Under the pieces are notes generated by a model. That model was not told the origin of the DNA. It was given only the letters and a program-made list of their open reading frames with translations, and did not search any database. Shown piece by piece: positions 15,731 to 39,420 of a stretch of 64,000 nucleotides of DNA. The translations under genes were made by a program, and so were the position numbers. Source of the stretch: an uncultured Oscillospiraceae bacterium. GTDB taxonomy: Bacteria; Bacillota; Clostridia; Acetivibrionales; DTU013. The stretch lies in assembly GCA_964512095.1 (NCBI GenBank), contig CAZEIH010000001.1, forward strand, positions 126,091-190,090, given 5' to 3'. The first letter of the stretch is position 1. Each line of letters starts with the position of its first letter.

Positions 15731-15886
15731 TTATACCGCTTTTGAGTTGCTCCCCTGATATTTTGCTTTTGTTGCTTCCCCTCCCCTGATATGCCTTTCT
15801 GCTTTGTTTTCCTCCAGAATGACCCTCACGTCTTCAGCAAGCTCAGGGCTCACCCTTAGCAATCGTTCCGTTACATCCTTGTGCAC
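15731..15886 (-). CDS. spoIIID: spoIIID 3' segment (C-terminal 49 codons plus stop) of a split gene
   Basis: Encodes VHKDVTERLLRVSPELAEDVRVILEENKAERHIRGGEATKAKYQGSNSKAV*, colinear with the C-terminal half of SpoIIID (KSTVHKD...RGG.GGE motif region). The upstream part of the 95-aa track ORF is element DNA. Confidence 0.85.
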   Translation of the reverse strand: MHKDVTERLLRVSPELAEDVRVILEENKAERHIRGGEATKAKYQGSNSKAV

Positions 15887-17489
15887 GGTTGTCAGTATCG
15901 GCGACGCTATTTTCAACAGGCGACATGAGGAATGTTCCCGACAAAAGAATAGGGAAGTTAAGGCCTTCCACGTCCTCGCTGATGTTGAAATAAACGTAGA
16001 TCTCATCCACAGACACAATTTTAATCTCTTTGATTATTTTCTTTAAGTCAGCATTCTCAATGCTTTCAGTAAAACTAAATTTATCAAAAATCTCAATAAA
16101 CTGCTTTAGACTCTCCCTGATCTGACGATTCAGTTCTCTGGTCTTGTCGGTGCTATCCAGCTTGAATGATAACCTTTCAATTTCGGCATTGATGGGAACC
16201 ATATCCTGCTTCGCTTCATCCATGGTAATAAGACCATTCACAGCCAATTCCTTTAGCCTGTCACGTTTGCTATGCAACTCACTTAGGTCTGCTTTCGCCT
16301 CATCAAGATCAATGCCATTGTTATCCCTGATATACTCCCTGATTAAACTATTGCACTTGCGCTCAACCTCATCAAAGAAAGATACTTTTCCCTCTACCAG
16401 ATAACTAAAAAGACTGTCCAATCCTTCTTTAAGCCAATCTTCATTTATTCTGGTGTATTCAGATTCGCAGCGGTTTTTGCCATAGGCACTTCTTTTAGAG
16501 CATGTCCACCAAACATACAACGGGCCATCTTTAGAGTGCCTTCTTTGATAACGCCTGTAAGAAAAACCGCATGAACCGCATTTAATTAAGTTGGAAAATA
16601 AATGCTTATTGCTCCTGCGTGAAAATATGTCTTGATAGAGTTCAGCGTTTTTCTTCGTCTGTTCCAGAGCCTTATAAAATTGCTCATCAGATATGATTCT
16701 AAACTCCGGTCTGTCCACCACATACCACTCTTCTTCCGGGTTTTCCTTGCGCTTGTTGGTAAATATATCTGTACTGCTCTCTTTGCCATTGATGACTTGG
16801 CCAATATATATTTCATTTCTCAAAATATTACCCACCGTGTTTTGCGACCAATTATAGTTGGGCTGTCCGTCTTTCAGTTTTTTGGTCTGCACTCGGTTCT
16901 CAAATAAATAGGAAGCGATTCTTGCCATGCCCCATTCTTCTTCCGTATATAAGTCGAAAATTTTCTTGACCCATTCGCTTTCTTCAGGGTTAGGCTCTAA
17001 ATTATATGCATCTATCCTATCATAGCCAAAGACGAAATTAGGCACACGGCCTTTTTCTTTGCCGAATTGCTTTCCAAACTTCACTTTTTCTGAGATGCGC
17101 TGGGATTCACTTTCAGCCAGCATAGCCATAAGATTTAAAGTGAAACCATCAATATCCTTGCCTTCGCCCATATTGACAAGATGCAGATTCACTCCATACA
17201 AGCTCAATTCTCTAGTAACGGTGATAAAATCAAGTGTGTTTCTAAAAAGCCTGCTGATATCTTTAACATAGAGCTTTTCAAATTCTCCACGCTTGGCGGC
17301 TTTTCTCAATCGCTGCAAATCTTTTCTGTTTTGCATCTTTGTAGCAGACTTGCCCTTATCACAATAAATCGCTACTAGTTCATCTCCCCTTTTGGGAATA
17401 TAGCTTTCAAAAAACTCACGCTGATTTTCCAGCGAGCTTTGTTGTTCTTCTTTATCTGTACTAACCCTAATATAAGCGACAGCCTTCAT
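15843..17489 (-). CDS. Large serine recombinase (rec1)
   Basis: 548 aa. N-terminal resolvase catalytic motif AVAYIRVSTDKEEQ, a recombinase domain, and a Cys-rich zinc-ribbon (CGSCGFSYRR...WWTCSKR...C). RBS GAGAGGTG. The ORF reads across attL into host DNA. Confidence 0.9.
   Translation of the reverse strand: MKAVAYIRVSTDKEEQQSSLENQREFFESYIPKRGDELVAIYCDKGKSATKMQNRKDLQRLRKAAKRGEFEKLYVKDISRLFRNTLDFITVTRELSLYGVNLHLVNMGEGKDIDGFTLNLMAMLAESESQRISEKVKFGKQFGKEKGRVPNFVFGYDRIDAYNLEPNPEESEWVKKIFDLYTEEEWGMARIASYLFENRVQTKKLKDGQPNYNWSQNTVGNILRNEIYIGQVINGKESSTDIFTNKRKENPEEEWYVVDRPEFRIISDEQFYKALEQTKKNAELYQDIFSRRSNKHLFSNLIKCGSCGFSYRRYQRRHSKDGPLYVWWTCSKRSAYGKNRCESEYTRINEDWLKEGLDSLFSYLVEGKVSFFDEVERKCNSLIREYIRDNNGIDLDEAKADLSELHSKRDRLKELAVNGLITMDEAKQDMVPINAEIERLSFKLDSTDKTRELNRQIRESLKQFIEIFDKFSFTESIENADLKKIIKEIKIVSVDEIYVYFNISEDVEGLNFPILLSGTFLMSPVENSVADTDNRAQGCNGTIAKGEP
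15880..15886. other. attL core: left copy of the 7-bp direct repeat TGTGCAC
   Basis: Identical heptamer at 38024-38030. It lies exactly at the point where SpoIIID-like coding breaks off. Confidence 0.75.
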
Positions 17490-17564: not shown

Positions 17565-17599
17565 AAATGAAAACAGGGCAGCTTATGCGCTGTCCTGTT
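17565..17599 (-). terminator. Hairpin plus T-rich tract between the small ORFs and the rec1 promoter
   Basis: Stem AACAGGACAGC / GCTGCCCTGTT (17572-17599), followed on the minus strand by TTTCATTTC. Confidence 0.5.
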
Positions 17600-17750
17600 C
17601 TGTGTATGTACTATCGGTTGAGTTAATGGATTTTATCGCCGCCGCTACGATGCTTTTGGCAACCCCTTGAGACAGTGCATCTAAAATATAACTTAGGATA
17701 GCGGGATCCAGGTTGCTTATTTCACTTTTTTTCTCTAACACCCCTTGCAC
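17583..17750 (-). CDS. Small ORF (55 aa, GTG start), candidate accessory or directionality factor
   Basis: VQGVLEKKSEISNLDPAILSYILDALSQGVAKSIVAAAIKSINSTDSTYTEQDSA. RBS GGGGGTGAG. A similar small ORF lies upstream of rec2. Below the ORF-track size cutoff. Confidence 0.4.
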   Translation of the reverse strand: MQGVLEKKSEISNLDPAILSYILDALSQGVAKSIVAAAIKSINSTDSTYTEQDSA

Positions 17751-21825: not shown

Positions 21826-22160
21826 TTCGAAAAGTCGGAACATACCGGAAGGATCTCATCATACTAGACTTTCAAAGCCTCCATACACCTGTAATGGCTG
21901 TGAGGATAAAAGATCTTGCACGTTGGAAAAGAGGGTCTACTCTGCGGTTCATGCACAAAGAGAATACGAGGCAGTCCGTTCCGAGTCTCGTCAAGGGTTA
22001 CAGCTTACAGAGGAAGAGGCTTTGAGACTAGATTCACTTATTAGCCCTCTGCTAATGAAAGGCCAGTCACTCCACCATATATGTGCAAACCATGTAGATG
22101 AGATTATGCTCAATGAACGCTCTCTTTACAACTACGTGGATGATGGCATTTTTGCAGCAC
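21826..22160 (+). pseudogene. Transposase remnant (IS30-like family, uncertain), truncated at both ends
   Basis: Encodes ...LSKPPYTCNGCEDKRSCTLEKRVYSAVHAQREYEAVRSESRQGLQLTEEEALRLDSLISPLLMKGQSLHHICANHVDEIMLNERSLYNYVDDGIFAARD and then diverges. There is no start, no DDE domain and no terminal repeats. Confidence 0.5.
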
Positions 22161-22282
22161 GAGATACCATCTACAATACGGTTTCCTGTGGAATTTACTT
22201 TTGCAAACTGGAAGTTACCTTTTCAATTGACCCTTGCGCGACAACACTTTTTACAATACCTTATAATTTTGAATACTTTCGC

Positions 22283-23632
22283 CTAATATTTTGACCGTTC
22301 CAACGCCATCCCAATAATCTTATCCGCATGATCCGCCATAAACAACGGAATATTCAGCAGGTCATCATCCATGCGCAGGTTATTCAGTGAAAAGCGAACA
22401 CGCAGCTTTACCTTATCTTCAAATTTTTCCTTGTACTTTTTAAGGCTCCGGCTTTCCACATTGCTCTCGGATTTAACCTCTACCGGCAAAATGTCATTTT
22501 CTCTTTGGATAAGAAAATCAACCTCATACCTTGGGTTATCCATTGTCCAATAACGTGGCATAGCTTCAAACTGGTTTTGTAACGCTTGCAGGACATAATT
22601 CTCACTTAAAGCCCCTTTAAACTCTACAAACAGCCTATTACCTTCACCAAATGCCGAGGGAGCTAATAGAGATAATCTACGCAATAATCCTACATCGACC
22701 ATATATAGTTTAAATGCAGACAAATCGTCATAGGCGGAAATAGGCAGCCCCGGTGCGGTGCTGCGGTATATCTTATAAGTCAAGTTGGCATCACAAAGCC
22801 ATTGCAGAGCATCTTCGTATTCCCTCGCTCTGGCTCCTTCCTTGACAACCTTATAAATAAACTTTTTATTTTCCCTTGCCAGTTGTGAAGGGATTGATTT
22901 CCATATCATTGAGATTTTCGGAAAATCCTTAGGATCAGGGTGCTTGGCAAAATCTCTTTCGTATGCGCCTAAAATATTGGATAGCACCTGCTGCATCAGC
23001 TCCACATCTCGGTCTTGCACCCAAGAGCGAACAGACTCCGGCATACCGCCTGTTACAAAATACATTTTAAGCTTTTCGTATAATGGATTGAAAAACGCCT
23101 CGGGAATCGGCTCAATCCTGTCCACGCTTTTCATATAATCAGCAAAGTTACCGTCGCCATTGGCCATTAAAAACTCCGTAAATGTCATTGGCATAATTTC
23201 TAAAAAATCCACCTTGCCAACTGGAAAAGATGCTGGCTTAGACAATGCAATGCCCAAAAGTGATCCTGCGCAGGCTACATGGTAGTGAGGCGTGTTCTCG
23301 CAGAAATACTTCAGTGTGTTCAGTGCGTTAGGGCATTCCTGTATCTCATCAAAAACAATGAGCGTGTCCTCCGGATTGTCTTGTTTGATGACTTCTCCGC
23401 TGGCCATCATCAGATTTTGCAGAATACGCTCCACATCCTTGGTGCTTTCAAAAAACTGTTTATATTCTGGATGCTCGTCAAAGTTGAAATAGGCCATATT
23501 TTCATAATGGCGTTTTGCAAATTCCTTGAGTAGCCAAGTCTTGCCCACCTGACGCACCCCTTTTAAAATAAGGGGTTTTCTATATTTGGAGTTTTTCCAG
23601 TCCAGCAGTTTTTGCATAGCCAGTCTTTCCAT
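22283..23632 (-). CDS. AAA ATPase with DUF4143-type C-terminal domain (copy 1)
   Basis: Walker A GVRQVGKT and Walker B LIVFDEIQ. The likely start is MERLAMQK (23632) after RBS GGAGGTGG. About 25 substitutions versus copy 2, by eye. Confidence 0.8.
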   Translation of the reverse strand: MERLAMQKLLDWKNSKYRKPLILKGVRQVGKTWLLKEFAKRHYENMAYFNFDEHPEYKQFFESTKDVERILQNLMMASGEVIKQDNPEDTLIVFDEIQECPNALNTLKYFCENTPHYHVACAGSLLGIALSKPASFPVGKVDFLEIMPMTFTEFLMANGDGNFADYMKSVDRIEPIPEAFFNPLYEKLKMYFVTGGMPESVRSWVQDRDVELMQQVLSNILGAYERDFAKHPDPKDFPKISMIWKSIPSQLARENKKFIYKVVKEGARAREYEDALQWLCDANLTYKIYRSTAPGLPISAYDDLSAFKLYMVDVGLLRRLSLLAPSAFGEGNRLFVEFKGALSENYVLQALQNQFEAMPRYWTMDNPRYEVDFLIQRENDILPVEVKSESNVESRSLKKYKEKFEDKVKLRVRFSLNNLRMDDDLLNIPLFMADHADKIIGMALERSKY

Positions 23633-23929
23633 ACCGCCACCTCCAAGATAACACATTATTATACAACTTTTGCGTATGATAATCACATTTATATTGATAA
23701 GTATAGCTGAAATTCAAATTCTAGTCAAGAGTAATCACACTATTATATGAAATAGATAGATAAAAATCACATAATCGTGTAATTTTACTCTATAGTCTTT
23801 AACATAACAAAACCTGCCCCGATAAACAAGGCAGGTTTTGCTTACTTTCATGTATTCTTAATTTCAGCTTTTAAGCCGCATATTCAAACACCCAATGCAA
23901 CCGACACTGACTGTTACTACTGTTTGTAC
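22295..23929. repeat. Direct repeat copy 1 (right-end module of unit 1: ATPase gene, upstream region, hairpin, att arm)
   Basis: Collinear with 36353-38030. High nucleotide identity through the ATPase gene and lower identity in the upstream region. Similarity starts at CCG(T/C)TCCA...GCCATCCCAATAATC. Confidence 0.8.
23809..23839. terminator. Symmetric hairpin AAAACCTGCC-N11-GGCAGGTTTT (bidirectional terminator-like), copy 1
   Basis: Perfect 10-bp stem flanked by an A-run and a T-run. Lies 25 nt downstream of the rec2 stop. An identical hairpin is at 37900-37930. Confidence 0.6.
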
Positions 23930-25585
23930 CGTTGTTCCTATCGGTGTCGGTGTTTTCTTGCTTTTTAATGCTCTGCCTTTTATAGTGCGTCTGACTTCTG
24001 CATCGCAGTCGCTCTCTAGTATTATAGGAAAGAACAGGCCATTAATCTCGTCATCTACTTTAAAGTATACATGCAACTCGCTTGCACTTATGACTCTGAT
24101 TTCCTTAACCACACTCCTAAGACCATTATTTGTAAGACCATCTTTAAACGAAAAACTATCAAAGTTGCGAATAAAACCTTTAACATTTTCTTTGACTTTA
24201 CGTGTGAGTTCGGCGGTCACATCCTCTGCGTGAAGTATGGTTGATATACGCTTGATGTCAGCATCTAAGGCTGCCATATCCTTCTCGCCCTCATCCATAC
24301 CAATCATACCTTTTTTCACCATAGTTTTGACACGCTCACGCTGTGCTTGTAAGTCTTTCAGTTCTTTGTTCAACTCATTAAAATTCAGCCCTGTGGCGTT
24401 TTTGAGGTACTCTTTGATTACATCACTACACTTAGCCTCAATCAGCTTAAAAAAGGCTTCACGGTCTTGCACTAAACTGTCAAATAAAAGAGTTAAGCCT
24501 CTGAGAACATCTTCTTCTTCCACTCTTATATGCTCTGCTGTACACCTTGCACTACCATAAGCCTGTCGCTTACTGCACACCCACCAATAGTAGTACGGTC
24601 CCGTCTCACTATACTTACGCTGATAGCGTCTATACCCGCCACCACAGGAGGTACACTTTAATAGGTTTGAAAGGGTGTGGTCCTCACTACGGCGTGAAAT
24701 CTTTCGATGCCCGTGTTCATCAGATGGAAATTTCTCTGCGTTCTCTTCTATAATCCGTTGTGCTTTCTCAAATTGCTCATCAGATATGATACGAAAATCA
24801 GGTCTTTCTGTAACAAACCAATCTTCTGTATCCATCGTTACGCGTTCGCCCGTATAAATGGACTTTACATTCTCCTTGTTATTTATAATAAGCCCTGTAT
24901 ATAAGCGGTTTTTTAGTATACATGAAACAGTATGTTGAGTCCAGTTATAGTTGGGTTCACCGTTCTTTTTCTTTTTTGTTACTACTCGGTTCTTATATAA
25001 GAAGTCGGCTATACGGCTCATTCCCATATGCTCTACTGTATATAAATCAAATATCTTTTTGACCCAGTAGGCATCCTTATCTGGTTTTAAAGTATATTTA
25101 TCAACACGCTCATAGCCAAAAACGAAGTTAGGCACTATCCCTTTTTTCTTACTGATGTTTTTACCGAACTTGACACGCTCACTCATTTTTTCAGACTCGT
25201 TTTCTGCCAATAAAGCCATTATACTGAGTGATAAGGAATCCACATCTTTACCTTTCTCGCCCTGACCGGCTAAGTGTAGTTTAATCCCTAACCCGTCCAA
25301 CAACTCTCTCGTAAAGGTTATATAATCGAGTTGATTTCGGAATAACCTTGATATTTCCTTTGCGTAAATCTTTTGATAACACCCTTTTTTACCATCACTT
25401 ATTAACCTCTGTAATTCCCTTCTATTTTTGGACTTAGTTGCACTCATACCCTCATCGCAGTATATTTCAACTAACTCGTCACCCCGGTCTGCTATGTATT
25501 TCTCAAAGAACTCCCGCTGGTTCTTCAGCGACAGGGCTTGTTCTTCTTTATTTGTACTAACCCTTATATACGCAACAGCCCTCAT
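23864..25585 (-). CDS. Large serine recombinase (rec2)
   Basis: 573 aa. AVAYIRVSTNKEEQ catalytic motif and a zinc-ribbon (CTSCGGGYRR...WWVCSKR...C). Roughly half the residues are identical to rec1 by eye. The ORF spans the internal attP-like site. Confidence 0.9.
   Translation of the reverse strand: MRAVAYIRVSTNKEEQALSLKNQREFFEKYIADRGDELVEIYCDEGMSATKSKNRRELQRLISDGKKGCYQKIYAKEISRLFRNQLDYITFTRELLDGLGIKLHLAGQGEKGKDVDSLSLSIMALLAENESEKMSERVKFGKNISKKKGIVPNFVFGYERVDKYTLKPDKDAYWVKKIFDLYTVEHMGMSRIADFLYKNRVVTKKKKNGEPNYNWTQHTVSCILKNRLYTGLIINNKENVKSIYTGERVTMDTEDWFVTERPDFRIISDEQFEKAQRIIEENAEKFPSDEHGHRKISRRSEDHTLSNLLKCTSCGGGYRRYQRKYSETGPYYYWWVCSKRQAYGSARCTAEHIRVEEEDVLRGLTLLFDSLVQDREAFFKLIEAKCSDVIKEYLKNATGLNFNELNKELKDLQAQRERVKTMVKKGMIGMDEGEKDMAALDADIKRISTILHAEDVTAELTRKVKENVKGFIRNFDSFSFKDGLTNNGLRSVVKEIRVISASELHVYFKVDDEINGLFFPIILESDCDAEVRRTIKGRALKSKKTPTPIGTTVQTVVTVSVGCIGCLNMRLKS
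23899..23951. other. Internal attP-like dyad site at the unit 1 / unit 2 junction
   Basis: AACCGACACTGACTGTTACTACTGTTTGTACCGTTGTTCCTATCGGTGTCGGT, with outer inverted repeat ACCGACAC/GTGTCGGT. 38 of 53 positions match the attP reconstructed from the element-side arms of attR plus attL. Confidence 0.6.
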
Positions 25586-25687: not shown

Positions 25688-25807
25688 TCACGCTGTTTCT
25701 GAGATTTGTATTGCTTCGGCCGACTCAGCCACTATCTTTCGAGCGATATTTAGTGCAAGAGTCTCTGCTATCTTTTGTAGGATGTCATCGGGTAGTTTGA
25801 CCTCCAT
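25688..25807 (-). CDS. Small ORF (39 aa from the ATG), homologous to the small ORF upstream of rec1
   Basis: MEVKLPDDILQKIAETLALNIARKIVAESAEAIQISETA. The same frame stays open upstream (…KRISIRYNANGQGVKG) with no canonical start, and that stretch resembles the 36-aa ORF of unit 1. Confidence 0.35.
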   Translation of the reverse strand: MEVKLPDDILQKIAETLALNIARKIVAESAEAIQISETA

Positions 25808-26032
25808 ACCTTTGACTCCTTGTCCATTTGCGTTATACCTTATGCTTATTCTCTTTTTAGCTTGTTTATGTTTGTTAAATTGCTTTATAGTAACCGCAGT
25901 CCTTCTTGTCTTAATGACCTGTTTGTCATTGTGCCTAACCGGCTCTAAGCTCTTTATTTATGCATAAAAATGTTGGAGAGCTAAAATTTATCTCTTTAGC
26001 CACCCCAACATTAATTATAGAACCAATATATA

Positions 26033-27397
26033 TCAGAACTTATCGCCCAGCTTGTAATCGGCGATCAGCTCCAGACGGCTGCTGCGGCCGGTTTTCTTGA
26101 AGATGTTGCCGGCATGGAATTTTACCGTACTTTCTGTGATATACAGTGCGTTGGCAATCTCTGAATTGGACATGCCCTGTATAATAAAATTGAAAATGTC
26201 CTGTTCTCTAACCGATAGTCCAAAGTGGTTTACATACTCGGTCAGCCGCCGCTTTTCCGCCGCCTCCGGGCTTGTAATGGAAATGTACAGTTTCTGATAC
26301 AGCAGGAAGAAAAGTACGGTTACAAGCATGTAAACAACACTTGAAAGCACAATGAGGGGAATGCCTGTAAGTACGTCGGCGCATAACGTTCCGACTGCCT
26401 CTCCAAGACGTCCCACCAACAAACCGAACACAGCAAGAGCCGGCATACCCATCTTGTCGGAAATGTCTGAGAAAACCAGAATACGGTGCACCGACCAGAA
26501 ACCCAAGAACAGATAGGCCAGCATCCACATAGCTGTTTCTCCGGCAGAGTTACTGCCAAGTGCCAATGCCGCAAATGGAAAAGCAAGCGCTGCCAGACAA
26601 CAGATTGCTCCCCAACGTCGGTTTCTGTCGCTGACAACTCCGGCGATAATAAGACCAACGCCATAAAATGCGCGTGTGAACTCTATATAGACACTGCCCA
26701 TTGCTCCTTTGAGCGGGAAGGAGAAGCCGAGTGTGTTTTCCATCGATAACAGCAATAGCACAACTGCGGCTAGCCAAACAGTCTTTTTTTTAAAACCGGC
26801 ATGAAAATATCGGCTTTTTTCAGCCGCAGGAGGTGATGGAAGCCAACGCAGGAGTAATAATGACACAACTGCGAGCAACACTATGGCAAAGAAGCTATTG
26901 CTATGCCACAGGAAACGTTTACCCATCGGAAGAGAAATAAGCCATGTACAAATACTGCCAAAGGCGTATGCAGAGCCAAACACCAACCCTCGGCGCTGCT
27001 GCGGAATATCCGTGGAAAGCCTCGTCAGATAGCATCCTGACAAGATTCCGATTGATATGTTGAGCAATGCACCGGCAGCAATAATAACCGCTAAAGATGG
27101 TGAAAAAAATGACGCTGCTGTGCAGATTAATGCGATTATGGTAGTCAGGAGGGGGAATAACCGACCGCCGCCAAGAGAGGAGCGTTTTGCGAAAAGCAGT
27201 CCGGCCGCGCCGATGCCGGCAGCTTGGCAGACATAGTATGCCCCGCATACCAGCAGATTCACCGTTCCTCCATCCAGCATACTGAGCATCCGGTACGCTT
27301 GTGTAATATATGCCGTACCCGTCCAAAGAAAACCAAGACCGATAAGTGCAACAAAATACGGATACCTGCTTCTTATCTGGATACCATTTTTTATCAT
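26033..27397 (-). CDS. Polytopic membrane protein fused to a C-terminal LuxR-type HTH
   Basis: About 380 aa with 10 or more hydrophobic segments, then LSVREQDIFNFIIQGMSNSEIANALYITESTVKFHAGNIFKKTG. Lies in GC-richer DNA. Confidence 0.75.
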   Translation of the reverse strand: MIKNGIQIRSRYPYFVALIGLGFLWTGTAYITQAYRMLSMLDGGTVNLLVCGAYYVCQAAGIGAAGLLFAKRSSLGGGRLFPLLTTIIALICTAASFFSPSLAVIIAAGALLNISIGILSGCYLTRLSTDIPQQRRGLVFGSAYAFGSICTWLISLPMGKRFLWHSNSFFAIVLLAVVSLLLLRWLPSPPAAEKSRYFHAGFKKKTVWLAAVVLLLLSMENTLGFSFPLKGAMGSVYIEFTRAFYGVGLIIAGVVSDRNRRWGAICCLAALAFPFAALALGSNSAGETAMWMLAYLFLGFWSVHRILVFSDISDKMGMPALAVFGLLVGRLGEAVGTLCADVLTGIPLIVLSSVVYMLVTVLFFLLYQKLYISITSPEAAEKRRLTEYVNHFGLSVREQDIFNFIIQGMSNSEIANALYITESTVKFHAGNIFKKTGRSSRLELIADYKLGDKF

Positions 27398-27617
27398 ACT
27401 TTATCTCCTGTGATTAGGATTGCAAATACAAATATTAGTCCACATATATTGACATAATTATAGCATACGCCAGCAGTAAGTATAAAGAAAAAAGTCAAAA
27501 AAGAGAGAATAAAGTCCACCTATACTAAAACTATACCGCTCTTTTAGCCCGTCTGTACCCTATCTGGACTGTCCATGCAGAAAATTGACGTTTATGCTGA
27601 TATTGGAGGTGATCGAC

Positions 27618-27944
27618 ATGACATCACTGAGACGATGTTTTGCCTATGAGAAGAACATCGTTATAAATGCCCTGTACGATACCATCGAGGCATTGGGGCT
27701 ATCTCTTGACAGCTCAAACAGCATGCGTGGCACGTTGATAGTTTCCGACACGAACCATACCGGTAAAATGCGTATCGCACTCAGCTTTGACGCAGTTAGG
27801 AAGCAAACTCAGGTAGAGATCTATCCTGTGGACTCCGGAATAAACATTACTGAAGACTGGAGTACTGTTATTTTGGATGAACTCTCGGGAAGAATGGAGT
27901 ATTTGCACCAATTCGTTCGTGAAAGCAGCAACGGGTTATATTGA
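27618..27944 (+). CDS. Hypothetical small protein
   Basis: RBS GGAGGTG before the ATG at 27618. First gene of a co-oriented cluster divergent from the LuxR gene. Confidence 0.5.
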   Translation: MTSLRRCFAYEKNIVINALYDTIEALGLSLDSSNSMRGTLIVSDTNHTGKMRIALSFDAVRKQTQVEIYPVDSGINITEDWSTVILDELSGRMEYLHQFVRESSNGLY

Positions 27945-27977
27945 ACGAAGCACTAAGATATGAGAGGTGGAGTTTAA

Positions 27978-29474
27978 ATGAAAAAAGCACAACGTATTTT
28001 AGCAGCCATATGTATAGTCTTTATCACACTTACAGCATTAACGTTTAATGTCTACGGCGCAGAGCCTTCAATGACAAACTTTGATAAAGCGCAAAGCTAC
28101 AAGCCGGGGCAGTTTCCTGATATTACCGAAAATGAATGGTTCGGCTATAATAAGCAGCGTGTTGTTTGCAAGGCGTATGAATTGGGCCTGATGCAGGGAA
28201 AGGGCACCATGTTTGACCCAAATGCCGGAGTTACCTTAGCTGAAGCAGTTACAATGGCCGCAAGATTAAATAATATCTATAGCGGCGGCGATTGGGAGTT
28301 TCACCAGAGCTCCCCATGGTATTATACATATCTGGAATATTCCGTTTATAAGGAAATAGTCCAGGTTGACACTTTTGAAGATCTGACAAGACCAGCCACC
28401 AGAGCGGAAGTGGCTTACATATTTGCCCGTGCCCTTCCCGAAGGTGAATTTGCCGCTATTAATAAAATAGATGCCTTGCCTGATGTTAATTCCGGTACAC
28501 CTTACCAGAGCGAAATCTTTAGGCTCTACAAATCGGGTATTCTTACCGGTAACGATGCATATGGCACTTTTGGACCAAATGAGACGATTACCCGCGCACA
28601 GGCAGCAGCTATCATAACGAGGATAGCCCTTCCCTCGGAAAGAGTATCATTCACTCCAGCAAAAAAGGATGAACCGGCAGATAAAAAAGAAACAGTGAGC
28701 GAAGAACCCGCCAGTGTAATACCTGTCTGGAGTGAGGTCTATACTGAGGGCATGACCGTAAAAACAAAGGATGAATTAGCTGATCTGGTCGATGCTGCAT
28801 TCTATAACCTTGTTCCGAAATTCGAAATCTTGCTCGAAAATGCCGCATACGATGAATACTTTGACGACGTTGATTTTTCGGTGAGGCATTCGAATTTAGG
28901 CTACACTAGTTCGAATTATGATTATCAAACCAAAGTGTTTAGTCAAGAAATTAAGTATCTCCTGTTTCACCAAATGAAGGCTCTCATATTCAACCGGAAA
29001 GCTATTGAACTGTATGTAACAGAGGAAATGCGTGATTATGATACAAAAATGAATGCAATACTGGACAAAATAATTAAAACTGGCATGACTGAGAAAGAAA
29101 AGGTCAAGGCCGTTCACGACTATATGGTCGTTAACTACAGATATGACGAAAATTTTGAGGTAGGCTTATACGGCACTGATACCTATGCCTTTCACGGGCT
29201 TTTGAATTACGGGACCGGCGTCTGCCAAGCATATGCGGAATTGTTCTACCTTTTTATGAGCTATGTAGATATCGAATGTATCTTTGTGGGAGGCTGGGCG
29301 GACGGCGGAACCGGCGAGTATGGACTTCATGCATGGAATGTTGTCTATGCTGACGATGGCTACTATCATGTTGATGTGACCTTTGATGACACGCTGCCTG
29401 ACTCAGGCAGCAAAATCTCATATGATTATTTCCTGAAAACAGATGATGAAATGGCAATAGATCATGATTGGTGA
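27978..29474 (+). CDS. Secreted protein with SLH-like repeats and a C-terminal transglutaminase-like cysteine protease domain
   Basis: Signal peptide. SLH-like segments (…TRAEVAYIFARAL, ITRAQAAAIITRIA). Transglutaminase core GVCQAYAELF…GLHAWNVVY…HVDVTFDD. Confidence 0.7.
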   Translation: MKKAQRILAAICIVFITLTALTFNVYGAEPSMTNFDKAQSYKPGQFPDITENEWFGYNKQRVVCKAYELGLMQGKGTMFDPNAGVTLAEAVTMAARLNNIYSGGDWEFHQSSPWYYTYLEYSVYKEIVQVDTFEDLTRPATRAEVAYIFARALPEGEFAAINKIDALPDVNSGTPYQSEIFRLYKSGILTGNDAYGTFGPNETITRAQAAAIITRIALPSERVSFTPAKKDEPADKKETVSEEPASVIPVWSEVYTEGMTVKTKDELADLVDAAFYNLVPKFEILLENAAYDEYFDDVDFSVRHSNLGYTSSNYDYQTKVFSQEIKYLLFHQMKALIFNRKAIELYVTEEMRDYDTKMNAILDKIIKTGMTEKEKVKAVHDYMVVNYRYDENFEVGLYGTDTYAFHGLLNYGTGVCQAYAELFYLFMSYVDIECIFVGGWADGGTGEYGLHAWNVVYADDGYYHVDVTFDDTLPDSGSKISYDYFLKTDDEMAIDHDW

Positions 29475-29594
29475 TGCGAGATATCCGGCGCCCAAACGAT
29501 GGTGACCGAAGAATTGAATGGTGTGATAGATAAAGCTGTCACTCAGATTCCATTGATAGTGTTGTCAAGATATTGAAAGGGGTGGATGTAATAA

Positions 29595-31244
29595 ATGAGA
29601 AAAAGCAAATTGTGTATTTTTCTTCTATGCGCTATGATGCTTATGGCGCTGATGCCAACAGCAGCGTTGGCCACAGAACCTGCGCTAGCGGTGGACATTG
29701 TCACGGACGTTTCAACGGTTACAGAACTGAGGACAGCGCTGGAAAATAATGCGGGCGCTCATATCAGGCTGACAAAGAATATCACCTTCACCAAGGCAAA
29801 CGCAGCTGACAGGGATATCGGTGTTTATCTCGGCGAGGGCTGCTATACCATTGATTTGAACGGTTTTACGCTGAAATATCATTACATGACGGGCGGTGAG
29901 TTCACTGACCAAGGCTCGCCGCTGGCAAGCGGTAAGGCCAAGCTGCTCGTTATTAACGGCCCCGGTTCACTTATTGGAGGCAGCCATGGTTTTGAGCAAC
30001 TCGACCAGTTCGGCACTTTAATCGTCAATGGCGGCACGTTCAAGGGGGTCATGGGCTTCGGCATCCGCATGACCGGCGGCATTACTTATATGAACGGCGG
30101 GACTGTGACAGGTAATTTCGGTGGAATTGAACACGGGGACGGTATTGTCATAATGAACGGCGGAAACGTGAAAAGCGTGGTTCATAACCCTAGGGGCAGC
30201 ATAACGCCGAAAAAATACGGTTTGATCAAGGACGGCGTATTTACCGGCAACACTGTTCTTGAGGATATAATTCTGATTGTCCCCGATCTCACTATAAAAG
30301 CGGGATCGTCCATTAAGTTAATACGCGGCGGAGGGCTTGTCGTCAAGAACAGCTTAGTCAACAATGGCACGTTCACTTATGAATCGGGACTGAAATCCAT
30401 AGGTGGCAAGGCAGTGATAAGCAAGGATTTTCAGGTTACTATTGCACAGGATGTAACATTCAGCTCTCTAAAGATGCAGGAGCGTGCTCGGCTGATCATA
30501 GAAAACGGAGCGACTGTGGCCGTCAGCGACACTTTTGTCACGGAGCAGGACTGCTCTATCATAGCTAAAAACGGAACCCTCAGGCTTTTGGGCAGCATTG
30601 ACCATAGTGGATATGCCGAGGGCGTTCCTGAGCTTGAGGCGCTTCAGGACGGTAACGGCGGCGGAGGTCAAGGTCCAGGGCCGGAGCAGCGTGACTTCAT
30701 TGCTGAAACCGCTGCTGCCGAAAAGCTCAAGGCACTGGGGCTATTTCAAGGCGTTGGAACCAACCCGGACGGCAGTACAAACTTTGACCTCGCTCGAAAA
30801 CCCTCGCGAACAGAGGCGCTGGTCATGCTCATACGGCTGCTCGGCAAGGATAACGAGGTCATATCCGGAAGCTGGACTCATCCCTTCACCGATGTTCCGA
30901 AGTGGGCGGACAATTATGTTGGATATGCCTATGAAAACAAGCTCACAAACGGCATCTCCGCAACCGAGTTTGGTACAGGAACGGCCTCCTACAAGACATA
31001 TCTGACCTTCGTTTTGCGCGCGCTCGGCTACTCGGATAAGGGAGGTGTCGATTTCACATGGGACATGCCTGATGATCTGGCGCTTTCCATTGGTATCATG
31101 GCTGCGGGTATGCACCATGAAAATTTCCTCCGCGCCGACGTGGTGCTGGTTTCAGAAGCCGCATTGTCGGCAAGGCTCAAGGATGGCAGTGATTTGCTGC
31201 TTGATAAGCTGATTGAAGATGGAGCTGTCACACAGGTGCCATGA
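29595..31244 (+). CDS. Secreted repeat protein (NGG-type beta-helix-like repeats) with C-terminal SLH-like anchoring region
   Basis: Signal peptide. Repeats VNGGTFKG / MNGGTVTG / MNGGNVKS. A Gly-rich linker GNGGGGQGPGPE. C-terminal HPFTDVPKWADNYVGYAYENKL. Confidence 0.6.
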   Translation: MRKSKLCIFLLCAMMLMALMPTAALATEPALAVDIVTDVSTVTELRTALENNAGAHIRLTKNITFTKANAADRDIGVYLGEGCYTIDLNGFTLKYHYMTGGEFTDQGSPLASGKAKLLVINGPGSLIGGSHGFEQLDQFGTLIVNGGTFKGVMGFGIRMTGGITYMNGGTVTGNFGGIEHGDGIVIMNGGNVKSVVHNPRGSITPKKYGLIKDGVFTGNTVLEDIILIVPDLTIKAGSSIKLIRGGGLVVKNSLVNNGTFTYESGLKSIGGKAVISKDFQVTIAQDVTFSSLKMQERARLIIENGATVAVSDTFVTEQDCSIIAKNGTLRLLGSIDHSGYAEGVPELEALQDGNGGGGQGPGPEQRDFIAETAAAEKLKALGLFQGVGTNPDGSTNFDLARKPSRTEALVMLIRLLGKDNEVISGSWTHPFTDVPKWADNYVGYAYENKLTNGISATEFGTGTASYKTYLTFVLRALGYSDKGGVDFTWDMPDDLALSIGIMAAGMHHENFLRADVVLVSEAALSARLKDGSDLLLDKLIEDGAVTQVP

Positions 31245-31286
31245 ATAATAGTAGTGTCAATATATTGAAAGAGGAGTGAAGTTGAA

Positions 31287-35516: not shown

Positions 35517-35589
35517 TACAACAAGGTTACATAATGTCACCGGACTTACAGGTGTCTGGTTTACTCTGAACACATATGATAACAAAAAA

Positions 35590-35628
35590 CAGCCCAAAAT
35601 CCATTACACTTGGATTTTAGGCTGTTTT
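35590..35628 (+). terminator. Rho-independent terminator after the surface-protein operon
   Basis: Stem CAGCCCAAAATCCA / TGGATTTTAGGCTG (one mismatch), followed by TTTT. Confidence 0.65.
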
Positions 35629-35688
35629 GAATTGTTTTGATAATAAACCATGGTATCAATTACTTTGTTCACTCTTTGATGTGATATA

Positions 35689-36116
35689 TTAAAACAGTGA
35701 TATTTGAGTTAGTTTAATGCTTTTTATTTTTCGGTCTGTTATCTTATCTGATGGTTCAATACCGTATTCGTCTAGGTCAACTTCTTCGGCACATGTTTTT
35801 AAAGTAATGGCATTGGCATGGGCAATTCCAGAAAATTCTCGTGCAATAATATTAATTTCATTTTGAGTATGCTGAACTACATTTTCAGCCTTCAGATTAT
35901 TTTTCACTTTATCATAAATGTCAACAAAGCTAAAAACACAGCTGCTCGTAAATCATTTGTAATTAGCTTTGCTCCAAGTGATTTAAACATTTCTGCCACA
36001 ACAACTGAACCTGAAAATAAATCAGCTACAGTAGATCCAGAAATATCCCCATATGTTTTACTAACTATATCTTTGATGAATTCAAGTGCTTTAACTTTAG
36101 AACCCAGATATCGCAT
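35689..36116 (-). pseudogene. DNA adenine methyltransferase remnant (N-terminal motif only, frame-disrupted)
   Basis: MRYLGSKVKALEFI...VADLFSGSVVVAEMFKSLGAKLITND matches the N-terminus and AdoMet motif of D12-class methylases. The frame then breaks at 35904-35907, and no DPPY-type motif was found. Confidence 0.5.
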
Positions 36117-36343: not shown

Positions 36344-37690
36344 TCAACCCATCCGCTCCAGTGCCATCCCAATAATCTTATCAGCATAATCCGCCATAAA
36401 CATCGGAATATTCAGCAGGTCATCATCAAGGCGCAGGTTATTCAATGAAAACCTAACACGCAGCTTTACCTTGTCTTCATATTTCTCCTTGTACTTTTTA
36501 AGGCTACGGCTTTCCACATTGCTCTCGGATTTTACTTCCACTGGCAAAATATCGTTTTCTCGTTGAATCAGAAAGTCCACTTCATATCTTGGGTTTTCAA
36601 CAGTCCAATAGCGTGGCATGGCTTCAAACTGGTTTTGTAGTGCCTGCAGGACATAATTCTCACTTAACGCGCCTTTAAACTCCACAAACAGTCTGTTTCC
36701 CTCGCCAAAAGCCGAAGGAGCCAAGAGAGATAGTCGGCGCAACAATCCTACATCTGCCATATACAACTTGAATGCAGACAAATCATCGTATGCTGAAATA
36801 GGCAACCCCGGTGCGGTACTGCGGTATATCTTATAAGTCAAATTGGCATCGCACAGCCATTGCAGGGCATCTTCATATTCCCTTGCTCTGGCACCGTCTT
36901 TAACAACCTTATAGATAAATTTTTTATTTTCTCTTGCAAGCTGCGAAGGGATTGACTTCCAGATCATAGATATCTTTGGAAAGTCTTTAGGTTCAAGGTG
37001 TTTTGCAAAATCTTTTTCATATGCCCCTAGAATGTTGGACAGCACTTGTTGCATCAGCGCCACATCCCGGTCTTGCGCCCAGGAGCGAACAGACTCAGGC
37101 ATACCGCCTGTTACAAAATACATTTTTAGTTTTTCATAAAGGGGATTGAAAAAGGCCTCTGGGATAGGCTCAATACTATCCACGCTTTTCATATAATCAG
37201 CTAAGTTACCGTCACCATTAGCCATTAAAAATTCAGTAAAGGTCATTGGCATAATTTCTAAAAAATCTACTTTTCCAACTGGGAAGGACGCTGGCTTAGA
37301 CAATGTTATCCCCAATAACGATCCTGCACAGGCCACATGATAAATGGGCGTGTTCTCACAGAAATATTTCAATGTGTTCAATGCATTAGGGCATTCCTGT
37401 ATCTCGTCAAAAACAATGAGCGTTTTCTCTGGTCTGTCTCGTTTAATGATTTCACCACTGGCCATCATCAGATTTTGCAAAATGCGATTGACATCTTTGG
37501 TACTTTCAAAAAACTGCTTGTATTCAGGGTGCTCATCAAAGTTAAAATAAGCCATGTTTCCATAGTGGCGTTTTGCGAATTCCTTGAGAAGCCAAGTCTT
37601 GCCGACTTGACGTACCCCTTTTAAAATAAGGGGTTTTCTATATTTGGAGTTTTTCCAGTCCAGCAGTTTTTGCATAATCAGTCTTTCCAC
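36344..37690 (-). CDS. AAA ATPase with DUF4143-type C-terminal domain (copy 2)
   Basis: Near-identical paralog of 22283-23632. Likely GVG start VERLIMQK at 37690 after GGTGGTGG. Confidence 0.8.
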   Translation of the reverse strand: MERLIMQKLLDWKNSKYRKPLILKGVRQVGKTWLLKEFAKRHYGNMAYFNFDEHPEYKQFFESTKDVNRILQNLMMASGEIIKRDRPEKTLIVFDEIQECPNALNTLKYFCENTPIYHVACAGSLLGITLSKPASFPVGKVDFLEIMPMTFTEFLMANGDGNLADYMKSVDSIEPIPEAFFNPLYEKLKMYFVTGGMPESVRSWAQDRDVALMQQVLSNILGAYEKDFAKHLEPKDFPKISMIWKSIPSQLARENKKFIYKVVKDGARAREYEDALQWLCDANLTYKIYRSTAPGLPISAYDDLSAFKLYMADVGLLRRLSLLAPSAFGEGNRLFVEFKGALSENYVLQALQNQFEAMPRYWTVENPRYEVDFLIQRENDILPVEVKSESNVESRSLKKYKEKYEDKVKLRVRFSLNNLRLDDDLLNIPMFMADYADKIIGMALERMG

Positions 37691-37899
37691 ACTACCACCA
37701 CCAAAATAACACATTATTATACAAGTTTTGCGTATGATAATCACACTATATTGATATAGCATAGTCCAATTTCCAATATAAGTCAAGTCTAATCACGTTA
37801 TTATAAATAAATTGCTGCAAAAAATCACATTCTTATGTACTTCCTTGTCGATAGCCTACTCTGCATTATCGTATTTTAATCTACATCCTGCTGCAAAAC

Positions 37900-37930
37900 A
37901 AAACCTGCCCCGATAAACAAGGCAGGTTTT
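37900..37930. terminator. Symmetric hairpin AAAACCTGCC-N11-GGCAGGTTTT, copy 2
   Basis: Identical to 23809-23839. On the minus strand it lies about 60 nt downstream of the stop of the truncated spoIIID 5' fusion ORF. Confidence 0.6.
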
Positions 37931-38023
37931 CTTCGCTTTATGTTTCACTATTTTCCTTATGGTTTCAGCCCTTAAGCCACATATTCTATTATCCATTTAA
38001 ACCGACACCGATTGTGATAACTG

Positions 38024-38030
38024 TGTGCAC
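38024..38030. other. attR core: right copy of the 7-bp direct repeat TGTGCAC
   Basis: Identical to 15880-15886. It is the point where SpoIIID-like coding switches to the unrelated tail TVITIGVGLNG*. Confidence 0.75.
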
Positions 38031-38148
38031 CGTACTTTTACTAATACCAAATCTTTTAGCTGCTGCTCTTACTGTAGTCTTTTTATCAATAATGTAATTT
38101 GCAAGTTCTATTGCCCTCTCTTCAATATATCCCTTCAACTGTATATAC
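38025..38148 (-). CDS. spoIIID: spoIIID 5' segment (N-terminal 38 codons plus shared VH codons) of a split gene
   Basis: TTG start at 38148 with RBS AGAGGGGGT 8 nt upstream. Encodes KGYIEERAIELANYIIDKKTTVRAAAKRFGISKSTVH, colinear with the SpoIIID N-terminus and HTH. The track ORF 37989-38204 is this segment plus an element-encoded tail. Confidence 0.85.
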
Positions 38149-39345: not shown

Positions 39346-39420
39346 ATATTATTGTTACCGCATATGGCAACTATATACATATGGAAGTAAAATTAGTTGT
39401 GGCAGGCGACATACAAACAA

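What the first reader, a model, noticed from the sequence alone, without database searches (positions are those of the whole stretch)
22283..23929. Near-identical DUF4143-type AAA ATPase module at the right end of both units, while the recombinases are highly diverged
Seen in the sequence. The two ATPases (22283-23632 and 36344-37690) differ at only about 25 of about 449 residues by eye. The similarity continues through their upstream regions, a perfectly conserved hairpin and the att arm. In contrast, rec1 and rec2 share only roughly half their residues, and the cargo is unrelated. Inference: the ATPase and att-arm module is a conserved core part of this element family, whose role is unknown (possibly maintenance, recombination accessory or defence). 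It has either been recently homogenised by gene conversion or was recently shared. About 1.6 kb of direct repeats 14 kb apart also provide a RecA-dependent route to delete unit 2 cargo without the recombinases.
Basis: partly seen in the sequence, partly recalled or inferred. Interest (0 to 1): 0.55.

Follow-up and report, generated by a model that had tools for sequence, protein, structure and literature searches.

The report
Conserved ATPase end-module of spoIIID-splitting islands
Two different mobile islands sit one after the other inside the sporulation gene spoIIID, and each begins with the same very slowly evolving ATPase-nuclease gene (a candidate anti-phage gene); the two copies look alike because the protein is under strong selection, not because they were recently copied from each other.

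Summary
The repeat is real. It spans 22295-23932 and 36353-38033. The two AAA_14+DUF4143 ATPases are 94% identical in protein, the recombinases 52%, and the cargo is unrelated.

The "recent homogenisation" reading fails. The genes are only 86% identical in DNA. 150 of 193 differences are at third codon positions (pS 0.54, dS about 0.95, dN 0.04). The longest identical run is 63 nt. Each copy is closer to ATPases in other species' genomes (up to 97.8%) than to its neighbour.

The module is the attL-proximal end of a large-serine-recombinase (LSR) island. It consists of the P' half-site, an intrinsic terminator, a sigma-70-like promoter with TGTGAT boxes, and a PADLOC PDC-S01 ATPase/PD-(D/E)xK nuclease gene. 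The two islands lie in tandem inside spoIIID (22,144 bp between codons 38 and 39).

All four complete islands of the rec1/rec2 clade carry the module. None of 12 complete islands of a sister clade has it there, and none of 80 metagenome loci of the recombinase family has any ATPase homologue. Two further sister-clade islands from the genome scan hold a more distant ATPase inside their cargo. The module is therefore conserved in a sub-family only. Sister-clade islands carry known defence systems instead.

Intact ATPase cassettes also persist without a recombinase next to uninterrupted spoIIID, flanked by duplicated host DNA. The most likely role is defence cargo, but this is untested.

The parts
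22283..23632 (-). ATPase1: AAA_14 + DUF4143 (PD-(D/E)xK) protein, 449 aa, PADLOC PDC-S01
   Evidence: Pfam AAA_14 5.8e-31 and DUF4143 6.4e-38. PDC-S01 E 1e-181. Walker A GVRQVGKT at residue 25, Walker B LIVFDE at 91, and D372...E385-V-K387 are intact.
23633..23790 (-). ATPase1 promoter and leader: sigma-70-like TTGACT-17-TATACT (23728->23700) with repeated (A/G)TGTGAT boxes
   Evidence: Promoter scan. In 70 of 75 clade members' 160-nt upstream regions there are 2-5 TGTGA boxes, placed alike around the -35, the -10 and the ribosome-binding site.
23809..23839 (-). Hairpin 1: intrinsic terminator read on the - strand, followed by a U-rich tail
   Evidence: RNA fold -24.7 kcal/mol, z -5.3, with a 16-bp stem on the - strand, against -17.2 on the + strand. 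Identical to hairpin 2.
23864..23965 (-). Middle junction: hybrid site made of the P arm of unit 2 and the P' arm of unit 1 around the core ACGGTACAAACAGT. The last 60 nt of rec2 lie in unit 1's P' arm.
   Evidence: Junction alignment. The rec2 stop codon is at 23864.
36344..37690 (-). ATPase2: 448 aa, GTG start, same family
   Evidence: Pfam. 94% aa and 85.7% nt identical to ATPase1.
37691..37880 (-). ATPase2 promoter and leader (TTGACT-17-TATGCT, 37786->37758) with TGTGAT boxes
37900..37930 (-). Hairpin 2: intrinsic terminator
37985..38065 (-). attL: spoIIID 5' half joined to the P' arm of unit 2, core GTGCACA at about 38021-38027
38025..38138 (-). spoIIID 5' fragment: TTG start, 38 codons, ends ...GISKSTVH
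   Evidence: ORF and sequence. The same fragment is annotated PF12116 SpoIIID in L170.
15731..15880 (-). spoIIID 3' fragment: KDVTERL...SNSKAV plus stop. It follows the 5' fragment in frame once 15881-38024 is removed.
   Evidence: Annotated PF12116 SpoIIID in L161.
15843..17489 (-). rec1: large serine recombinase of unit 1. Its last 12 codons read across attR into spoIIID DNA in another frame.
   Evidence: Pfam Resolvase + Recombinase + Zn_ribbon_recom. Sequence.
23864..25585 (-). rec2: large serine recombinase of unit 2
   Evidence: Pfam. 51.7% identical to rec1.

Best explanation
The 1.64-1.68 kb repeat is the attL-proximal end-module of two different members of one sub-family of large-serine-recombinase (LSR) islands. 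The two islands are integrated one after the other in spoIIID, between codons 38 and 39. Unit 2 lies next to the 5' half of the gene and unit 1 next to the 3' half.

Read in gene orientation, each module has four parts:
1. The P' half-site of that unit's attP.
2. A strong intrinsic terminator. It stops transcripts coming from the truncated spoIIID 5' fragment, or from a recombinase gene that reads across the att site in the tandem or circular form.
3. A sigma-70-like promoter set among three or four TGTGAT boxes, which are probably operators.
4. A gene for an AAA+ ATPase fused to a PD-(D/E)xK nuclease domain, belonging to PADLOC candidate defence family PDC-S01 (COG1373).

Shown:
- The anatomy above.
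- The tandem insertion in spoIIID.
- The two ATPase genes are old, separately acquired alleles kept alike by very strong purifying selection. There is no sign of gene conversion.
- The module is conserved in the rec1/rec2 sub-family. It is absent from that position in sister-clade islands, which carry other defence systems.

Inferred:
- The ATPase is cargo that acts on its own, independently of the recombinase. It is most likely an NTP-driven nuclease that defends against phage or other invading DNA.
- Its benefit to the host helps the island, and later the stranded cassette, to persist.
- Precise excision by the recombinases in the sporulating mother cell restores spoIIID.
For: Against recent copying:
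- pS 0.54, pN 0.037, with 150 of 193 differences at third codon positions.
- The longest identical run is 63 nt.
- ATPase1 is closer to L001 (97.8% aa), L003, L002, L004, L006, L014 and L005 than to ATPase2. ATPase2 is closest to L002.
- Every relative of at least 87% aa identity still shows pS >= 0.46 and pN/pS of 0.03-0.09.

Sub-family conservation:
- L004 and L179 are single islands in spoIIID with the same layout.
- The module's left edge falls at the crossover point in 11 or more contexts.

Defence reading:
- PDC-S01 HMM match at E 1e-181.
- Walker A, Walker B and D..EVK motifs are intact in both copies.
- DUF4143 is classed in the PD-(D/E)xK superfamily (PMC3424549).
- Sister-clade islands in spoIIID carry AbiLi/AbiLii, AriA-like, Old/GajA-like, a CBASS cyclase, a type II methyltransferase, CapP and PDC-S28.
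- L002 and L001 have a possible TIR-like protein (judged by eye from its sequence, not scanned against any library) and a large probable DNA methyltransferase (also judged by eye) beside the ATPase. L179 has an N6_Mtase.

Independence from the recombinase:
- Intact cassettes under the same selection exist with no LSR within 10 kb.
Against: - PDC-S01 is an untested candidate family. It was proposed because members are embedded in other defence systems (bioRxiv 10.1101/2024.01.29.577857; PMC12988326). No experiment links it to phage resistance.
- A pN/pS of 0.03-0.08, with 90-98% protein identity across orders of Bacillota, is unusual for defence genes, which commonly diversify.
- The strict position right next to the P' half-site in every complete island of the sub-family could point to a role in island biology instead.
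- The structure model was too poor to test the nuclease fold (mean pLDDT 53, C-terminal half below 50).
- Excision and restoration of spoIIID are inferred from sequence only.
Confidence: 0.6

Rival explanations
1. The two ATPase modules were recently homogenised by gene conversion, or arose by a recent duplication or shared acquisition.
For: Protein identity of 94% against 52% for the recombinases. pS is lower for the ATPases (0.54) than for the recombinases (0.85, saturated).
Against: Nucleotide identity is 85.7%, spread evenly, and dS is about 0.95. There is no identical tract over 63 nt. Neither copy is the other's nearest relative. The same level of protein identity is seen between genomes of different orders. 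The P' arms differ in a way that matches each unit's own P arm.
Confidence: 0.03
2. The ATPase-nuclease is an accessory factor of the island itself. It might control excision or integration, act on att DNA, maintain or replicate the excised circle, or exclude rival islands from the same site. It would not be host-benefiting cargo.
For: It always sits directly beside the P' half-site, with the module boundary at the crossover. All four complete islands of the rec1/rec2 clade carry it. It has its own conserved promoter and operator boxes that travel with it. Three of five viral-catalogue hits lie next to LSR genes.
Against: All 12 complete sister-clade islands that use the same spoIIID site lack it at that position, and none of the 80 metagenome loci has any homologue. 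Intact cassettes are kept under strong purifying selection with no recombinase within 10 kb. The wider family is one of the commonest single-gene candidates in prokaryotes, with no reported link to recombinases (PMC12988326). An LSR lies within 10 kb in only 6 of 80 genome loci.
Confidence: 0.15
3. The ATPase cassette is a selfish retention or homing-type element. Its nuclease penalises loss of the cassette, or cuts empty sites. That would explain why it stays at the spoIIID locus after the island has gone, and why it spreads across taxa.
For: At least ten cassettes lie beside an uninterrupted spoIIID and are flanked by duplicated host DNA of 35-214 bp: L003, L013, L014, L016, L021, L022, L026, L027 and L178. 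One non-spoIIID cassette has a 33-bp repeat (L072). Three of them keep an attL relic. Protein conservation is extreme across hosts. spoIIID lies within 10 kb in 20 of 80 loci, against roughly 0.5 expected by chance (the expectation is my estimate).
Against: There is no partner antitoxin or immunity gene. The cassette boundaries in the relics are not fixed, since the P' arm and hairpin are lost to varying extents, which fits decay after duplication better than an active insertion mechanism. Many copies lie in unrelated contexts.
Confidence: 0.1

Closest known systems
PADLOC PDC-S01 / COG1373 (AAA_14 + DUF4143) predicted ATPase-nucleases
   Same: Full-length HMM match (E 1e-181). Same two-domain layout, with Walker A/B and D..EVK motifs intact. 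A single gene with its own promoter.
   Different: This clade is unusually uniform, at 75-98% protein identity across many Bacillota and a few other phyla. It is tied to the spoIIID locus and to the P' end of LSR islands, which I did not find reported for the family. The family itself has no demonstrated function.
gin element in gerE of Bacillus cereus ATCC10987 (PMC5595907)
   Same: A non-phage island with serine recombinase genes that splits the short coding region of a mother-cell transcription factor. There it is excised in sporulation to rebuild the gene, and it carries restriction-modification-type cargo.
   Different: The target here is spoIIID, not gerE. Here two separate islands lie in tandem, each with one recombinase. 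The gin element has three recombinases and a demonstrated accessory factor GirX. No excision data exist here.
skin elements in sigK (B. subtilis, C. difficile) and SPbeta in spsM (PMC5025042, PMC4191935, PMC6957869)
   Same: An LSR at one end, att sites inside a mother-cell sporulation gene, and precise excision predicted to restore the reading frame.
   Different: Those are prophages or prophage remnants. The islands here are 8 and 14 kb with no phage genes seen. spoIIID acts earlier in the cascade than sigK, and in B. subtilis it helps transcribe the skin recombinase gene. spoIIID is not among the split genes listed in these papers.
Tandem SCC-type cassettes integrated by Ccr serine recombinases
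   Same: Different cassettes with diverged LSRs stacked at one chromosomal site, giving a hybrid internal junction. NCBIfam's weak best hits for rec1 and rec2 include CcrB/CcrA/CcrC, far below the family cut-offs.
   Different: This comparison rests on my own knowledge of SCC arrays. The recombinases here are not Ccr family members (scores 46-93 against cut-offs of 700-900). The target is a coding sequence that gets split.

Membership tests
PDC-S01 (PADLOC candidate defence) / COG1373 | Match to the family HMM over the full length | tested here: met
   PDLC04786 at E 1.1e-181, 602 bits, residues 1-438 on profile positions 3-434 of 439.
PDC-S01 (PADLOC candidate defence) / COG1373 | AAA_14 ATPase domain followed by DUF4143 (PD-(D/E)xK) domain, with catalytic motifs | tested here: met
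   Pfam hits for both copies. GVRQVGKT, LIVFDE and D372..EVK387 are present. DUF4143 is placed in the PD-(D/E)xK superfamily in PMC3424549.
PDC-S01 (PADLOC candidate defence) / COG1373 | Protection against phage | not testable with these tools
   The family as a whole is untested (10.1101/2024.01.29.577857; PMC12988326).
Sporulation gene-intervening element (skin / SPbeta / gin type) | Splits a mother-cell sporulation gene so that precise removal restores one open reading frame | tested here: met
   The spoIIID 5' part ends at 38025 (..KSTVH) and the 3' part starts at 15880 (KDVTERL..). tblastn places them as residues 1-36 and 1-49 of contiguous queries. Both pieces carry the PF12116 label. 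Uninterrupted homologues read ..SKSTVHKDVTERL...
Sporulation gene-intervening element (skin / SPbeta / gin type) | Own site-specific recombinase next to one att site, and att sites with inverted arms around a shared core | tested here: met
   rec1 and rec2 have Resolvase + Recombinase + Zn_ribbon_recom domains. The shared core is GT(G/A)CA(C/A)A. Unit 2's arms share ACCGACACCGAT in inverted orientation, and unit 1's share CCGA(T/C)ACTGAC.
Sporulation gene-intervening element (skin / SPbeta / gin type) | Recombination directionality factor | tested here: inconclusive
   Small ORFs lie just upstream of each recombinase (17583-17750, 55 aa; 25688-25807, 39 aa) and share only a short A(K/R)xIVA motif by eye. 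No family match was attempted that could name them.
Sporulation gene-intervening element (skin / SPbeta / gin type) | Excision during sporulation, limited to the mother cell | not testable with these tools
   This needs culture or read-level data.
Recent gene-conversion tract / recent duplicate | Low synonymous divergence or long identical tracts, with the two copies as each other's closest relatives | tested here: not met
   pS 0.54. Longest identical runs are 63, 29 and 26 nt. Seven foreign ATPases are closer to ATPase1 than ATPase2 is.
Intrinsic (Rho-independent) terminator | GC-rich stem-loop followed by a U tract on the transcribed strand | tested here: met
   On the - strand, -24.7 and -25.9 kcal/mol with z -5.3 and -4.7, followed by UUUUGUUAUGUU or UUUUGUUUUG. 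The simple scanner missed it, probably because of G-U pairs and the interrupted U run.

The most novel reading that the evidence does not exclude
The ATPase-nuclease is not passive cargo. It would be a self-retaining module tied to the spoIIID site. When the recombinase island leaves the germ line, only lineages that kept the cassette (through a duplication spanning attL and the ATPase) persist, because losing it is penalised or keeping it is strongly favoured. That would explain the repeated, independent 'host repeat - ATPase - host repeat - intact spoIIID' arrangements, the near-invariant protein, and the operator boxes that travel with the gene.
Probability: 0.15. Interest if true: 0.75.

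Novelty: new member of a known kind. Interest (0 to 1): 0.5.

Why it matters
1. It corrects a tempting misreading. High protein identity between neighbouring copies here reflects selection, not recent exchange.

2. It places the finding in its real context, a widespread family of small serine-recombinase islands that split spoIIID. spoIIID encodes a key early mother-cell regulator and is not among the split sporulation genes listed in the papers I could search (sigK, spoVFB, spoVR, spsM, gerE). These islands carry anti-phage systems as cargo. If excision is developmental, SpoIIID production in many gut and digester Clostridia would depend on a DNA rearrangement.

3. It gives PDC-S01, one of the commonest untested defence candidates, a well-defined and highly conserved clade. 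The clade has a portable promoter and operator and a clear mobile context, which makes it a good choice for experiments.

Tried and rejected
- **Structure prediction.** The ATPase was modelled from a 52-sequence alignment that had only two tight clades. Mean pLDDT was 53 and the C-terminal half fell below 50. I therefore ran no fold search and make no structural claim.
- **Sequence search of solved structures.** Nothing relevant was found.
- **NCBIfam.** No family matches the ATPase. The recombinases match XisF and Ccr models far below their cut-offs.
- **Exact-sequence look-ups of ATPase1, ATPase2 and P0001.** All failed. Look-ups of rec1, rec2 and the M23 gene worked. They showed that short-read assemblies break at the ATPase repeat.
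- **Search for a repeat-mediated deletion variant.** L170 joins the same host flank to a third ATPase allele, which becomes 100% identical to unit 1 only in its last ~200 nt. It is not an ATPase2/ATPase1 hybrid and may be an assembly chimera, so it is not evidence for the RecA route.
- **Third ATPase candidate.** The 467-aa ORF at 13860-15263 has no Pfam hit and no similarity to the ATPase.
- **Vertically inherited neighbour of spoIIID.** Rejected, because the ATPase is 90-98% identical between hosts whose SpoIIID halves are only 45-80% identical to the window's.
- **Tandem array formed by homologous recombination through the ATPase.** Rejected, because the middle junction is a hybrid of unit 2's P arm and unit 1's P' arm.
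Full report
**1. What is in the sequence**

All the features lie on the - strand. Read in gene orientation, from high to low coordinates, the layout is as follows.

| Feature | Coordinates |
|---|---|
| M23 peptidase gene | 38506-39345 |
| 5' 38 codons of spoIIID, ending ..GISKSTVH | 38138->38025 |
| Junction (attL) | about 38021-38027 |
| Hairpin 2 | 37900-37930 |
| ATPase2 | 37690->36344 |
| Unrelated cargo, about 10.8 kb, raised GC; includes a LuxR-type regulator and SLH-domain proteins | between ATPase2 and rec2 |
| rec2 | 25585->23864 |
| Second (middle) junction | about 23925 |
| Hairpin 1 | 23809-23839 |
| ATPase1 | 23632->22283 |
| Cargo, about 4.8 kb; includes BlaR1 and BlaI homologues | between ATPase1 and rec1 |
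| rec1 | 17489->15843 |
| Third junction (attR) | about 15880 |
| 3' 49 codons of spoIIID, KDVTERL.. | 15880->15731 |

Removing 15881-38024 (22,144 bp) joins the two spoIIID pieces in frame into an 87-residue protein. It reads ..SKSTVHKDVTERL.., as uninterrupted SpoIIID genes do. Both pieces carry the Pfam SpoIIID label in other assemblies of the same organism. The two 'units' are therefore two serine-recombinase islands integrated in tandem inside spoIIID. The genes around them (spoIID, murA, DUF1779) are the usual neighbours of spoIIID.

**2. Check of the observation**

The repeat runs from 22295 to 23932 and from 36353 to 38033, with 82.8% identity over 1685 aligned columns.

- The ATPases share 421 of 449 residues.
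- The hairpin core of 31 nt is identical in both copies.
- The recombinases are 51.7% identical.
- No cargo ORF is shared.

The description is correct.

**3. Why the two ATPases look alike**

At the DNA level the genes are 85.7% identical, and the divergence is even along their length.

- Of 193 differences, 150 are at third codon positions.
- pS is 0.54 (dS about 0.95) and pN is 0.037.
- The longest identical runs are 63, 29 and 26 nt.

A scan of one genome per GTDB species found more than 500 relatives. The best 80 are 75-98% identical in protein and come from very different hosts. These include Desulfitobacterium, Heliorestis, Syntrophomonas, Thermincola, Anaerovoracaceae and Lachnospiraceae, plus bins labelled Bacteroidales, Syntrophus, Synergistaceae and Spirochaetes.

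Seven of these relatives are closer to ATPase1 than ATPase2 is. ATPase2's nearest relative is L002. All relatives of at least 87% protein identity still differ from ATPase1 at 46-78% of synonymous sites, with pN/pS of 0.03-0.09.

The likeness is therefore the normal state of a slowly evolving, horizontally mobile gene. It is not recent conversion or duplication. The recombinases simply evolve much faster (pN 0.34) and are saturated at synonymous sites.

**4. What the module is**

- **The 'att arm' is the P' half of attP.** The three junctions share the core GT(G/A)CA(C/A)A. Unit 2's two arms share ACCGACACCGAT in inverted orientation, and unit 1's share CCGA(T/C)ACTGAC. The arms therefore match their own unit, and the middle junction is a hybrid of unit 2's P arm and unit 1's P' arm. 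This fits site-specific insertion of one island into an end of the other. It does not fit homologous recombination through the ATPase.
- **The hairpin is an intrinsic terminator.** It folds best on the - strand (-24.7 kcal/mol, z -5.3) and is followed by a U-rich run. rec2 ends 60 nt inside unit 1's P' arm. The terminator therefore ends the recombinase transcript in the tandem or circular form, and ends transcripts from the spoIIID 5' stub in the integrated form.
- **The promoter is sigma-70-like.** A TTGACT-17-TATACT promoter follows the hairpin. It sits among three or four (A/G)TGTGAT boxes whose positions are conserved across the clade.
- **The protein is an ATPase-nuclease.** It has AAA_14 and DUF4143 domains and intact Walker A, Walker B and D..EVK motifs. 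It matches PADLOC PDC-S01 over its full length. PDC-S01 is a candidate defence family that was proposed from embedding in other defence systems and has not been tested (10.1101/2024.01.29.577857; PMC12988326). DUF4143 is classed as PD-(D/E)xK (PMC3424549).

**5. Neighbourhood surveys**

*Starting from the ATPase (80 genome loci)*
- spoIIID lies within 10 kb in 20 loci. By my estimate, chance would give well under one.
- An LSR lies within 10 kb in 6 loci (HMM search).
- L004 (recombinase 91% identical to rec1) and L179 (83%) are single islands in spoIIID with the ATPase at the attL end and different cargo.
- With the two window units, that makes four of four complete islands of this recombinase clade.
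- The module's upstream edge coincides with the crossover point in at least 11 contexts. Some of these are at sites other than spoIIID (L002, L172, L173).

*Starting from the recombinase (80 metagenome loci, 35-69% identity)*
- In 68 loci the spoIIID 3' fragment lies directly after the recombinase gene. Most of the rest end at a contig edge.
- Twelve loci are complete islands of 6-11 kb with both spoIIID halves, cut at the same codon. None contains an ATPase homologue.
- Their cargo includes AbiLi/AbiLii, AriA-like and Old/GajA-like ATPases, a CBASS cyclase, a type II methyltransferase, CapP and PDC-S28.

The recombinase family is thus a spoIIID-targeting family whose islands carry defence genes. 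The ATPase module is the fixed end of one sub-family, not of the whole family. L066 and L069 are distant islands from the genome scan (recombinase about 35% identical to rec1). They hold a 76%-identity ATPase in the interior, in the opposite orientation, which is consistent with cargo.

**6. ATPase cassettes without a recombinase**

Many intact copies lie between the M23 or spoIID gene and an uninterrupted spoIIID (L014, L015, L020, L021, L025-L027, L178 and others).

- Nine such cassettes are flanked by direct repeats of host DNA, 35-214 bp long and 83-100% identical. The repeat is often the terminator of the upstream gene. A tenth repeat-flanked cassette, L072 (33 bp), is not next to spoIIID.
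- In L003, L013 and L016 the upstream repeat copy is a spoIIID 5' fragment that ends exactly at the crossover and runs into the P' arm. This is an attL relic.
- In L022 a truncated P' arm is joined to another host position.

One model fits all of these. A tandem duplication, or a Campbell-type reinsertion, spans host DNA, attL and the ATPase. Excision of the rest of the island then restores spoIIID. The redundant copy later decays. This model is an inference, and I could not test it.

Other copies sit in unrelated contexts, for example next to a toxin-antitoxin pair in the complete genome of Thermincola potens.

**7. Function**

I favour stand-alone defence cargo for three reasons:
- the family assignment;
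- the defence cargo carried by sister islands;
- the persistence of intact copies without a recombinase.

Against this, the family is untested. The extreme protein conservation is also atypical for defence genes. The fixed position next to P' leaves room for a role in island biology or for self-retention. These alternatives are listed as rivals.

**8. The RecA deletion idea**

The repeats could recombine in principle. However, 14% divergence and short identical runs make this inefficient, by established knowledge of homology requirements.

The only variant I found is L170, which has the same host flank at 100% identity. It carries a third ATPase allele that switches to unit-1 sequence near its 3' end. 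It is either a recombinant with foreign DNA or an assembly chimera. It is not the predicted ATPase2/ATPase1 hybrid.

**9. Novelty**

- The ATPase belongs to a known, uncharacterised family.
- The islands belong to the known kind 'sporulation gene-intervening elements'.
- The papers I could search list sigK, spoVFB, spoVR, spsM and gerE as split genes, but not spoIIID.
- I found no report of defence-gene cargo in such elements.
- The library lacks most subscription journals, so this absence is not proof.

Noticed in passing
window 15731-38138: spoIIID is split between codons 38 and 39 by a 22,144-bp insert (15881-38024). The insert is made of two tandem serine-recombinase islands of about 8.0 and 14.1 kb. 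Removing it restores an 87-aa SpoIIID.
   Followed up: yes
L081-L160 (metagenome loci): The rec1/rec2 recombinase family is spoIIID-targeting on a large scale. In 68 of 80 loci the spoIIID 3' fragment lies directly after the recombinase gene. Twelve complete islands of 6-11 kb use the same codon. Their cargo is known or candidate defence systems: AbiL, AriA-like, Old/GajA-like, CBASS cyclase, MTase, CapP and PDC-S28.
   Followed up: partly
L003, L013, L014, L016, L021, L022, L026, L027, L072, L178: Intact ATPase cassettes without a recombinase are flanked by direct repeats of host DNA (33-214 bp, 83-100% identical). Most lie just upstream of an uninterrupted spoIIID, and three keep an attL relic. 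The mechanism is unexplained; duplication followed by excision is my guess.
   Followed up: partly
window 23633-23790 and 37691-37880; same region in L001-L050: Three or four (A/G)TGTGAT boxes are conserved in position around the -35, the -10 and the ribosome-binding site of the ATPase promoter across the clade. They are probably operators that travel with the gene, possibly for autoregulation.
   Followed up: partly
window 23864-23925 and 15843-15880: Both recombinase ORFs run across the crossover point. rec2 ends 60 nt inside unit 1's P' arm. rec1 ends 12 codons into spoIIID DNA, in another frame. Each recombinase's C-terminal tail therefore depends on whether the island is integrated, tandem or circular.
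   Followed up: no
window 17583-17750 and 25688-25807 (- strand): Small ORFs of 55 and 39 aa lie just upstream of rec1 and rec2 and share a short A(K/R)xIVA motif by eye. They are candidate directionality factors. rec1 itself has a near-consensus TTGACC-17-TATAAT promoter, also judged by eye.
   Followed up: no
L170 (JGI 3300038805), against window 36353-39389 and 21984-23932: Another assembly has the same host flank at 100% identity, then a third ATPase allele that is neither ATPase1 nor ATPase2. It becomes 100% identical to unit 1 from the last ~200 nt of the gene onward. It is either a real recombinant or an assembly chimera.
   Followed up: partly
L161-L166, L171: Short-read assemblies that carry rec1 or rec2 exactly all break within a few kb, at or near the ATPase repeat. 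Many ATPase relatives sit on contigs of 1.5-5 kb. The gene behaves as an assembly-breaking repeat.
   Followed up: no
L006 2492-3781 and P0121-P0240: A paralogous AAA_14+DUF4143 clade, 47% identical to ATPase1, is equally tight. Its 120 best relatives are all at least 84% identical and are spread over hundreds of contigs. Strong conservation within clades may be general for this family.
   Followed up: no
L172 131-4372: A viral-catalogue contig has three serine recombinase genes in a row, directly upstream of a P' arm, hairpin and ATPase module (98% aa identity). This recalls the three recombinases of the gin element.
   Followed up: no
window 26000-36000: Unit 2 cargo has clearly higher GC (44-52%) than the surroundings (35-42%). 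It encodes SLH-domain, beta-helix and transglutaminase-like surface proteins plus a LuxR-type regulator. Unit 1 carries a BlaR1/BlaI-type sensor-repressor pair and a DUF3846 gene.
   Followed up: no
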